Origin: Eledone cirrhosa
Lineage: Eukaryota
Assembly: GCA_964016885.1 (NCBI GenBank)
Contig: OZ024740.1
Coordinates: forward strand, 435,302,001 to 435,366,000
Length of the DNA: 64,000 nucleotides
Reading direction: 5' to 3'
The translations under genes were made by a program, and so were the position numbers. Under the pieces are notes generated by a model. The model did no database searches. It saw only the letters and a list, made by a program, of their open reading frames with translations, and was not told the DNA's origin. Positions 59,979-60,171 of the stretch are shown in pieces; the first letter of the stretch is position 1; each line of letters begins with the position of its first letter.

Positions 59979-60055
59979 ACAAAGGAAATGTGGTAAGGAA
60001 CCAGGTGGACCATAACGCACCAAAGTACTCAATACTTGAGGTAGTAGAGTGTGTA

Positions 60056-60171
60056 ATAGGAACCAGTAAGACCCCGACAGCTGAGCTCAAGCCGTTTCGA
60101 CGGCTAATTCAGTCCAGAATTAGCCGTCGAAACGGCTTGAGCTCAGCTGTCGGGGTCTTACTGGTTCCTAT
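60056..60171. repeat. Perfect inverted repeat, 55-bp arms, 6-nt loop (AGTCCA)
   Basis: 60056-60110 is the exact reverse complement of 60117-60171. Confidence 0.97.

What the first reader, a model, noticed from the sequence alone, without database searches (positions are those of the whole stretch)
59979..60171. Perfect 116-bp hairpin in a TA array that contains the 3' half of a hammerhead ribozyme
Seen: an isolated ~190-bp GC-balanced island within (TA)n ends in a perfect 55-bp-arm palindrome. Read through the loop it gives stem II (GACGGCTAATTC-loop-GAATTAGCCGTC, closing G-C), then GAAAC, stem III (ACGGCT/AGCTGT) around the palindrome TGAGCTCA, a GUC cleavage triplet, and GGGGTCTTAC as a stem I strand. 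Established: Penelope-like elements (PLEs) carry type I hammerheads, often with palindromic helix III loops, and often have inverted terminal structures. The CUGANGA core is absent; the inverted copy occupies its place. Inference: a PLE terminus that folded back or template-switched at ribozyme stem II, or a hairpin-type non-autonomous PLE derivative.
Basis: partly seen in the sequence, partly recalled or inferred. Interest (0 to 1): 0.75.

Follow-up and report, generated by a model that had tools for sequence, protein, structure and literature searches.

The report
Penelope run-off hairpin in TA repeat
This hairpin is two short copies of the end of a very abundant Penelope-type jumping gene joined head to head in a TA repeat, a known kind of insertion; across the genome such copies break off mostly at one spot inside the element's predicted ribozyme and less often at its predicted cut site, which likely records the two start points of the RNAs that were copied.

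Summary
The hairpin is real: 55-bp perfect arms and a 6-nt loop. It is not a folded ribozyme or a separate mini-transposon. It is two head-to-head copies of the 3' end of a young Hydra-clade Penelope-like element (PLE): 3,543-bp tandem unit, RT plus C-terminal endonuclease, over 22,000 exact ends in (TA)n. The parent carries a complete type I hammerhead with the U3-A8 core UUGANAA; none of 100 core-spanning copies has CUGANGA.

Arms start at two fixed sites 80 nt apart. They end mostly in a 13-nt zone in hammerhead loop II (66 of 90 short-end arms), and less often exactly at the predicted cut site (about 450 against about 60 two bases either side). Single-base spacers at the main edge are G/C (43 of 50, against 1 of 50 at a control site), as a capped start predicts. 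A second cap test was negative. Either arm can be the longer, which argues against fold-back.

The architecture is published, and this scan noted the same reading on other DNA, including this genome. The run-off mechanism is inferred; no RNA data were available.

The parts
59008..59978 (.). (TA)n microsatellite target, left flank; its last 3 bases are shared with the element's long end (TAT microhomology)
59976..60110 (-). Long arm (end A): unit positions 3409-3543 of the PLE, with 2 substitutions against the reference copy
59976..60055 (-). Unpaired 80-nt 'tail' between the two fixed outer ends (unit 3464-3543); 77 nt without the shared TAT
60111..60171 (+). Short arm (end B): unit positions 3403-3463, identical to the reference copy; begins at A3403
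60111..60116 (+). Hairpin loop AGTCCA = unit 3403-3408. The A at 60111 is the main 5' edge of arms and the inferred capped transcription start (TTAGTC, an initiator-like motif, recalled consensus)
60121..60156 (+). 3' half of the predicted type I hammerhead: stem II 3' strand 60121-60128, GAAA 60129-60132, stem III 60132-60150 with palindromic loop, predicted cut between 60151 and 60152, stem I 3' strand 60152-60156. A mirror copy lies on the - strand at 60071-60106. Neither arm has the core.
60169..61036 (.). (TA)n microsatellite target, right flank; TAT shared with the short end

Best explanation
The island is two head-to-head copies of the 3' end of an abundant Hydra-type Penelope-like retroelement set in a TA repeat, likely made when both cut target strands primed reverse transcription at two fixed sites 80 nt apart near the front of the element's RNA, ran off its likely capped 5' end, and were joined. 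Shown: family identity, two fixed outer ends, variable junctions, a sharp 5' edge at unit 3399-3410 peaking at A3403, a second edge at G3444, and matching haplotypes in the two arms. Inferred: both-strand priming (about 0.8); A3403 as the capped transcription start (about 0.75); G3444 as the product of hammerhead cleavage in cells (about 0.75); end joining by repair. Because the inferred start lies inside loop II, the primary transcript and this hairpin lack the core and would not self-cleave. Long and tandem copies would come from another RNA class (read-through or circular).
For: Parent: 3,543-bp tandem unit with 5 end copies in one array. Its ORF of about 719 aa folds like telomerase RT (best Foldseek hits are TERT, E 2.4e-8) and has the Hydra motifs. 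Exact end counts: long end 22,549, short end 7,346. Edge: 34,588 matches to unit 3408-3425 against 2,943 + 348 to 3391-3408. Of 90 position-ordered short ends, 66 start in 3398-3410; 76 have an inverted partner, and 50 of those partners start in the same zone. Arms are independent in length: short arm longer in 35, long arm longer in 29, equal in 12; in 16 of 76 the short arm exceeds its partner by more than 10 nt. Cap-like spacer: both arms ending at 3403 have a G/C spacer in 43 of the first 50 of 306 sites, against 1 of the first 50 of 505 sites at 3409 (Fisher p 2e-19). 8 of 13 inspected G/C sites carry haplotypes whose long copies have T at 3402, so the base is untemplated. Cut-site edge: estimated true 5' ends about 451 at 3444 against about 62 at 3442 and about 58 at 3446, each from 30 loci read. 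Not an intrinsic block: of 16 insertions that carry 800 nt or more of ORF-side sequence past the unit junction, 0 stop in 3398-3410, 10 run past it, 4 stop short and 2 are unresolved (my count). Six further insertions jump from the edge to internal positions 62-818, and five of them end again at 3400-3414. Published in vitro support from another clade: both strands are cut and extended, and initiation is internal at two sites that define the tail (PMC11167929, parts 1-2 of 4 read).
Against: The cap test on ends joined directly to TA was negative: G before A3403 in 21 of 317 against 8 of 86 at 3408, p 0.48. C precedes A3403 as often as G (48 and 43 of the first 100), only partly explained by a C3402 subfamily. 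The edge is a 13-nt zone, not one base. A weak hairpin in loop II overlaps it. The hammerhead fold is no more stable than shuffles (z 0.21) and Rfam does not detect it. 8 of 100 cores have C3 with A8, a mismatch. In the anole element, hammerhead cleavage was dispensable in vitro and no RNA-seq reads began or ended at the cut (PMC11167929). The 3443 control (about 227 ends) is not clean, because most are two 3444 ends joined blunt, or two 3443 ends annealed through CG. Counts at 3444 rest on 30-locus samples and one subfamily pattern.
Confidence: 0.75

Rival explanations
1. One cDNA folds back or self-primes at hammerhead stem II and copies itself. This is the first reader's model; self-priming was also proposed for PLE palindromes in PMC3846280.
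For: Arms are perfect or nearly perfect copies. Haplotypes match in 85 of 88 hairpins against a shuffled mean of 45. Long arms differ by 0.6 against 5.2 substitutions per 278 nt between insertions (8 pairs). 31 of 76 junctions have 1-6 nt of microhomology.
Against: In 35 of 76 insertions the short arm holds sequence absent from the long arm, by more than 10 nt in 16; in several the arms do not overlap at all (L069, L226, L239, L250). Zero-loop palindromes exist. Turns lie in loop II, not at the stem II 5' strand. Fold-back does not explain the fixed short end 80 nt inside the element.
Confidence: 0.07
2. Both strands prime, but the edge at 3399-3410 is a reverse-transcriptase stall at RNA structure or bound protein, not an RNA 5' end.
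For: A predicted weak hairpin in loop II covers 3399-3407. The edge is spread over 13 nt. The cap test on TA-joined ends was negative.
Against: Long-travelled cDNAs pass the same place (0 of 16 stop there, 10 pass). The G/C spacer is specific to 3403. RT passes the stronger stems III and II before it stops.
Confidence: 0.12
3. A hairpin-shaped non-autonomous element that is copied as a unit (a MITE-like derivative of the PLE).
For: Most short-end insertions have nearly the same size and shape. A few junctions recur, including the window's (5 of 80).
Against: 55 different junctions among 80 hairpins. The window's junction occurs with different subfamily markers. The same outer ends frame arms of 60 bp to 2.8 kb that include the ORF.
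Confidence: 0.04
4. Assembly or fold-back read artefact.
For: Perfect palindromes can arise in long-read libraries (general knowledge). No short-read contig bridges this locus by the tool's 31-base rule.
Against: An artefact would not give a fixed 80-nt unpaired tail, fixed TAT junctions, varied loops and decayed older copies at thousands of sites.
Confidence: 0.02

Closest known systems
Hydra clade of C-terminal-endonuclease PLEs, e.g. Hydra-1_Obim (Craig et al. 2021, PMC8557442; passages, section 11 and supplement passages read)
   Same: Single ORF with RT then endonuclease; RW(K/R), DKT, CxCX5C linker, CxxC and CxH around E and N; (TA)n target; hammerhead near the 3' end; partial tandems; inverted 5'-truncated copy with a one-sided tail.
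   Different: A different family from Hydra-1_Obim: two of my motif searches of that supplement found nothing, and its hammerhead core is listed as CUGAAGA. The unit is 3.5 kb, not under 3 kb. The tail is 80 nt, not 30-40. The core is U3-A8, with a ~37-nt loop II and a 6-7 bp stem III. Ultra-short hairpins dominate.
Poseidon PAc of Anolis carolinensis (Frangieh et al. 2024, PMC11167929; parts 1-2 of 4 read)
   Same: Two internal initiation sites that define the tail; both strands of AT-rich DNA cut and extended; initiation near the pLTR-ORF junction.
   Different: Different clade. Here both sites end in TAT and can pair with the target, whereas PAc initiation was reported as non-homologous. 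Here genomic ends pile up at the predicted ribozyme cut; PAc RNA-seq showed none.
Minimal PLE hammerheads, including the U3-A8 variant (Cervera and de la Pena 2014, PMC4209133, parts 1-2 of 4 read; Perreault et al. 2011, PMC3088659, passages)
   Same: Type I, U3-A8 covariation, G10.1-C11.1 pair, palindromic loop III, opposite-strand pairs close together.
   Different: Helix III is long enough for a monomer. Loop II is long and holds the inferred transcription start.
LINE-1 twin priming (recalled; not read here)
   Same: Second target strand primes inside the RNA, giving an inverted 5' part joined with microhomology.
   Different: Here the second site is fixed, the arms usually copy the same sequence twice, and both stop at a common RNA end.

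Membership tests
EN+ Penelope-like elements | Telomerase-like RT in a single ORF | tested here: met
   ORF of about 719 aa from the first ATG, with a YRDD motif. The model's best PDB hits are TERT. Pfam gave no hit.
EN+ Penelope-like elements | C-terminal GIY-YIG endonuclease | tested here: inconclusive
   VIY...YIG, R, E and N motifs are conserved in the alignment, but there is no Pfam hit and no separate fold search of the domain was run.
EN+ Penelope-like elements | Tandem or partial-tandem organisation forming pLTRs | tested here: met
   Array with 3,542-3,543-bp spacing; 386 exact unit junctions.
EN+ Penelope-like elements | Inverted 5'-truncated copy with a tail on one side | tested here: met
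   91 of 100 hairpins are long end plus short end, 2 long plus long, 7 unclassified (mixed and partly selected loci). Long examples.
EN+ Penelope-like elements | Target-site duplication | tested here: inconclusive
   Cannot be read in (TA)n.
Hydra clade | RWK-type motif, DKT, CxCX5C linker, CxxC and CxH flanking E and N | tested here: met
   RWR (RWK in most homologues), HSDKTG, CNCPDRSIC, CNLC..E..N..CKH (against the description).
Hydra clade | Insertion into (TA)n | tested here: met
   22,549 and 7,346 exact end-TA junctions.
Hydra clade | Placement in an RT tree with reference PLEs | not tested
   No reference sequences were on hand in the script box; membership rests on motifs.
Type I hammerhead ribozyme (parent element) | Three stems around the core, G10.1-C11.1, A15.1-U16.1, NUH triplet | tested here: met
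   The minimum-energy fold of the parent region gives this geometry, though z is 0.21 and Rfam gives no hit.
Type I hammerhead ribozyme (parent element) | Core CUGANGA, or the compensated U3-A8 form | tested here: met
   UUGAGAA or UUGAUAA in 87 of 100 core-spanning copies; CUGANGA in 0; C3 with A8 in 8.
Type I hammerhead ribozyme (parent element) | Self-cleavage | not testable with these tools
   Indirect only: excess of 5' ends at G3444.
Type I hammerhead ribozyme (window island) | Core present | tested here: not met
   Neither arm reaches unit 3360-3375.
Non-LTR retrozymes (bioRxiv 10.64898/2026.07.22.740005, part 1 of 5 read) | Short head-to-tail tandem units, each with a complete hammerhead | tested here: not met
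   The island is a head-to-head pair without a core.

The most novel reading that the evidence does not exclude
The insertions of this family are a fossil map of the PLE RNA cycle with three templates. A capped transcript that starts inside hammerhead loop II, and so cannot cut itself, gives tens of thousands of dead run-off arms. A ribozyme-cut 5'-OH RNA gives the G3444 stubs. Only read-through or circularised cut-to-cut RNA gives long and tandem copies. One RT dimer primes both target strands on the same RNA source at sites 80 nt apart, and this is the origin of the PLE inverted repeat and tail. It would also be genomic evidence that an animal PLE hammerhead cleaves in germ cells.
Probability: 0.5. 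Interest if true: 0.62.

Novelty: new member of a known kind. Interest (0 to 1): 0.42.

Why it matters
The locus itself is an inert retroelement stub. The family statistics bear on three open points in the papers read: how PLE inverted repeats and tails form (PMC8557442 and PMC3846280 leave it open), whether PLE hammerheads cut in vivo (PMC4209133: no in vivo evidence; PMC11167929: no reads at the cut), and what template gives tandem copies. The data give base-level predictions: capped start at A3403, cut before G3444, priming at 3463 and 3543. The family is young and has intact ORFs, so these can be tested directly. Seven paper searches listed no paper reporting such run-off or cut-site footprints in PLE copies; subscription journals are mostly not covered. 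AI notes of this scan have reached the same reading on other families.

Tried and rejected
Rfam scans of the island and of the parent region found no hammerhead, only low-score miRNA-type matches to the palindrome and the TA repeat. Pfam found nothing for the ORF. No RNA holder was listed for the element. Short-read contigs from four runs cover the island in pieces and show joints from the tail to 60107-60116, but none bridges the locus by the 31-base rule and the joints have short sides, so they are not counted as support.

Splice acceptor or spliced leader at the edge (the sequence reads TTTAG/TCCAG): no shared upstream exon among 372 arm ends examined. Blunt jump from the 3403 end to a ribozyme-cut 3' end at 3443: 1 case in the genome; a homology-guided jump would be invisible, so this is untested. 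Cap test on TA-joined ends: negative. A first long-end pattern was out of register and gave 55 hits; it was corrected. Naiad and Nematis assignments were dropped, because the endonuclease is C-terminal and the motifs fit Hydra. A 9-bp helix (CTCTACTAC with GTAGTAGAG) enclosing the long end is conserved, but I saw no compensatory change in 30 loci read by eye, so it is left as a lead. No complex prediction was run. Supplements of the bioRxiv retrozyme preprint are closed and those of PMC11167929 were not read; they may bear on novelty.

Full report
Observation. The island 59979-60171 (193 bp, 48.7% GC) sits in a 2-kb TA array and ends in a perfect inverted repeat: arms 60056-60110 and 60117-60171, loop AGTCCA. 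No CTGANGA occurs on either strand. Rfam finds no ribozyme there.

Family. A search of the 3.0-Gb genome returned 1,001 candidates, of which 40 were scored. Nearly all 30 loci read begin at the same TA junction; most turn with a different loop and end at the same second TA junction (the output for a few loci was cut). Longer copies lead upstream to an ORF and to an array with a 3,543-bp unit. I used one natural unit as the coordinate reference, numbered so that the long end (A) is 3543 and the short end (B) is 3463. Both ends finish in TAT, shared with the target. Exact counts are 22,549 A ends and 7,346 B ends; the B pattern covers subfamily-variable bases and undercounts. The window copy is A arm 3409-3543 on the minus strand joined bluntly to B arm 3403-3463 on the plus strand, with two substitutions in the tail.

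Protein. The ORF (about 719 aa from the first ATG) has 2,154 relatives at E <= 1e-30 among 7,998 scored candidates, the best listed at 39-54% identity. Pfam gives nothing. The predicted model (mean pLDDT 79) matches telomerase RT best. The alignment shows RW(K/R), DKT, a CxCX5C linker, and CxxC and CxH around E and N. These are the features Craig et al. list for the Hydra clade, which inserts into (TA)n (PMC8557442, section 11). It is not Hydra-1_Obim itself. No tree was built.

Hammerhead. The parent folds into a type I hammerhead: stem I ACCCC/GGGGU with a further bulged extension, core UUGAGAA at 3360-3366, stem II GAUCGGCUA/UAGCCGUC around a ~37-nt loop, GAAA, stem III, and a cut after C3443. 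The fold is not more stable than shuffles (z 0.21), and Rfam misses it. Among 100 core-spanning copies held, 87 read UUGANAA, 8 have C3 with A8, and none reads CUGANGA. U3-A8 is a published natural variant in PLEs (PMC4209133; PMC3088659). The window island lacks the core and the native stem II 5' strand, so it cannot be a ribozyme.

Where arms end. I examined 90 of the first 91 B ends listed by position on contig C1; one neighbour was skipped. 66 start in 3398-3410, with a peak at 3403-3404; 10 start further upstream; 14 start in 3413-3448, three of them at 3444 (p 0.005 against uniform). 76 have an inverted partner; this is a lower bound, since my walker stopped at homopolymers in some long arms. 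50 partners start in the same zone. Junctions are microhomology in 31, blunt in 21, and with inserts in 24. Genome-wide, 34,588 exact matches to 3408-3425 fall to 2,943 + 348 for the two variants of 3391-3408. 7,241 places have A3403 preceded by a base other than T, a few hundred of them long copies of the C3402 variant.

Not fold-back, not a mobile hairpin. The B arm reaches further than the A arm in 35 of 76 insertions, by more than 10 nt in 16, and in several the two arms do not overlap. A cDNA cannot copy from itself what it does not contain. Among 100 hairpins from all loci then held (a mixed, partly selected set), 91 are A+B, and 80 readable junctions fall into 55 types; the window's type occurs 5 times and on different haplotypes. 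The same ends frame arms up to 2.8 kb. The two arms do share their source: haplotypes agree in 85 of 88 (shuffled mean 45, maximum 55), and long arms differ by 0.6 against 5.2 substitutions per 278 nt (8 pairs). One RNA used twice, two RNAs from one locus, waves of subfamily activity and gene conversion are not separated by this.

What the main edge is. A3403 lies in TTAGTC (TCAGTC in an older subfamily) and A3399 in TCATTT, both like the Drosophila initiator (recalled consensus). D. virilis Penelope has an internal TATA-less promoter in its pLTR (PMC2377424, passages). Two cap tests were run. For ends joined straight to TA, G precedes A3403 in 21 of 317 against 8 of 86 at 3408, which is no excess. 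For palindromes with one base between two arms, that base is G/C in 43 of the first 50 of 306 sites at 3403, and in 1 of the first 50 of 505 sites at 3409, where the next templated base is likewise A/T. In 8 of 13 inspected G/C sites the haplotype is one whose long copies all carry T3402, so the base is untemplated. Reverse transcription of a cap is known to leave such a G (recalled). An intrinsic block is unlikely: of 16 insertions carrying 800 nt or more past the unit junction, none stops in 3398-3410, 10 pass, 4 stop short and 2 are unresolved (my count). That result also shows that long copies are not made from a monomer starting at 3403. Six insertions run to the edge, jump to internal positions 62-818 and pass the junction again; five of them end at 3400-3414. 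This shows that initiation occurs on RNA in which the two sites are followed by the ORF side. A splice junction at the edge was looked for and not found.

The second edge. 615 places have G3444 preceded by a base other than C; 22 of 30 read are true 5' ends, giving about 451. Controls give about 62 at 3442 and about 58 at 3446. The 3443 control (about 227) mostly consists of CCCC/GGGG palindromes that are equally two 3444 ends joined blunt. Single-base spacers between two 3444 ends were A/T in the three such pairs read, unlike those at 3403. This is the position a hammerhead cut would leave. Cleavage itself is untested, and in the anole element it was dispensable in vitro (PMC11167929).

Mechanism. 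Most likely the endonuclease cuts both strands of (TA)n, and each 3' end pairs through TAT and primes at site A or site B. On the capped transcript these sites lie about 140 and 60 nt from the 5' end, so both cDNAs run off and are joined, giving this 190-bp hairpin with an 80-nt unpaired tail. On cut RNA the same process gives the 3444 stubs. Long and tandem copies need read-through or circular RNA; circles were proposed in PMC4209133. A blunt jump from 3403 to 3443 was found once in the genome. Both-strand extension and two internal start sites were shown in vitro for Poseidon (PMC11167929). Self-priming on an antisense template was proposed earlier (PMC3846280, passages) and fits these junctions poorly.

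Novelty and verdict. The architecture is published, and this is a new family of a known clade. The footprints of a capped start inside loop II and of the ribozyme cut did not appear in seven paper searches. Unchecked AI notes of this scan report the same kind of hairpin and the same run-off reading in this and other genomes; a sequence look-up for this island found none. Two of those notes prompted my second cap test, and another gave the lead to PMC3846280. Interest 0.42: an ordinary locus, with useful and directly testable family-level clues.

Noticed in passing
window 30164-39989: An AP-endonuclease plus RT LINE (Pfam RVT_1, Exo_endo_phos) lies in nested long inverted duplications, e.g. 30279-32239 against 34126-36069, and 33514-36603 against 36878-39989.
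   Followed up: no
window 58302-59012 and 35850-36563: An inverted copy of part of the same LINE region lies just left of the TA array.
   Followed up: no
window 39990-58300: About 18 kb of strand-biased simple repeat (GC about 10%, almost no G on the + strand), broken by two short islands.
   Followed up: no
window 11082-19411: A 59-bp GC-rich satellite, 143 copies, 95% alike.
   Followed up: no
L002, L003, L006, L012, L013, L020, L024 flanks: Several unrelated palindromic or hammerhead-like stubs sit in neighbouring TA repeats, e.g. a CTGATGA...GAAAC motif upstream in L024; they are probably other PLE families.
   Followed up: no
unit 3470-3478 and 16-24 (L401-L430): A conserved 9-bp complement (CTCTACTAC / GTAGTAGAG) starts 6 nt after the short end and closes 15 nt past the long end. 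It exists only where the pLTR runs into the ORF side and may position the two start sites.
   Followed up: partly
L088, L223, L238, L249, L250: In 5 of 76 insertions the long arm stops at 3455-3464, right at the short arm's priming site, as if it met the second primer on the same RNA.
   Followed up: partly
G000:C1:91470500-91490300 (L054, L055): A tandem array of four full units differing by 2-7 substitutions (34-37 from a copy on C2), with two open ORFs in the half listed and a run of short internal tandem repeats at its 5' side.
   Followed up: partly
L016-L018 (G000:C3:281.34 Mb): Three copies of the hairpin with the same junction lie about 400 bp apart, amplified together with flanking DNA as a local tandem duplication.
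   Followed up: no
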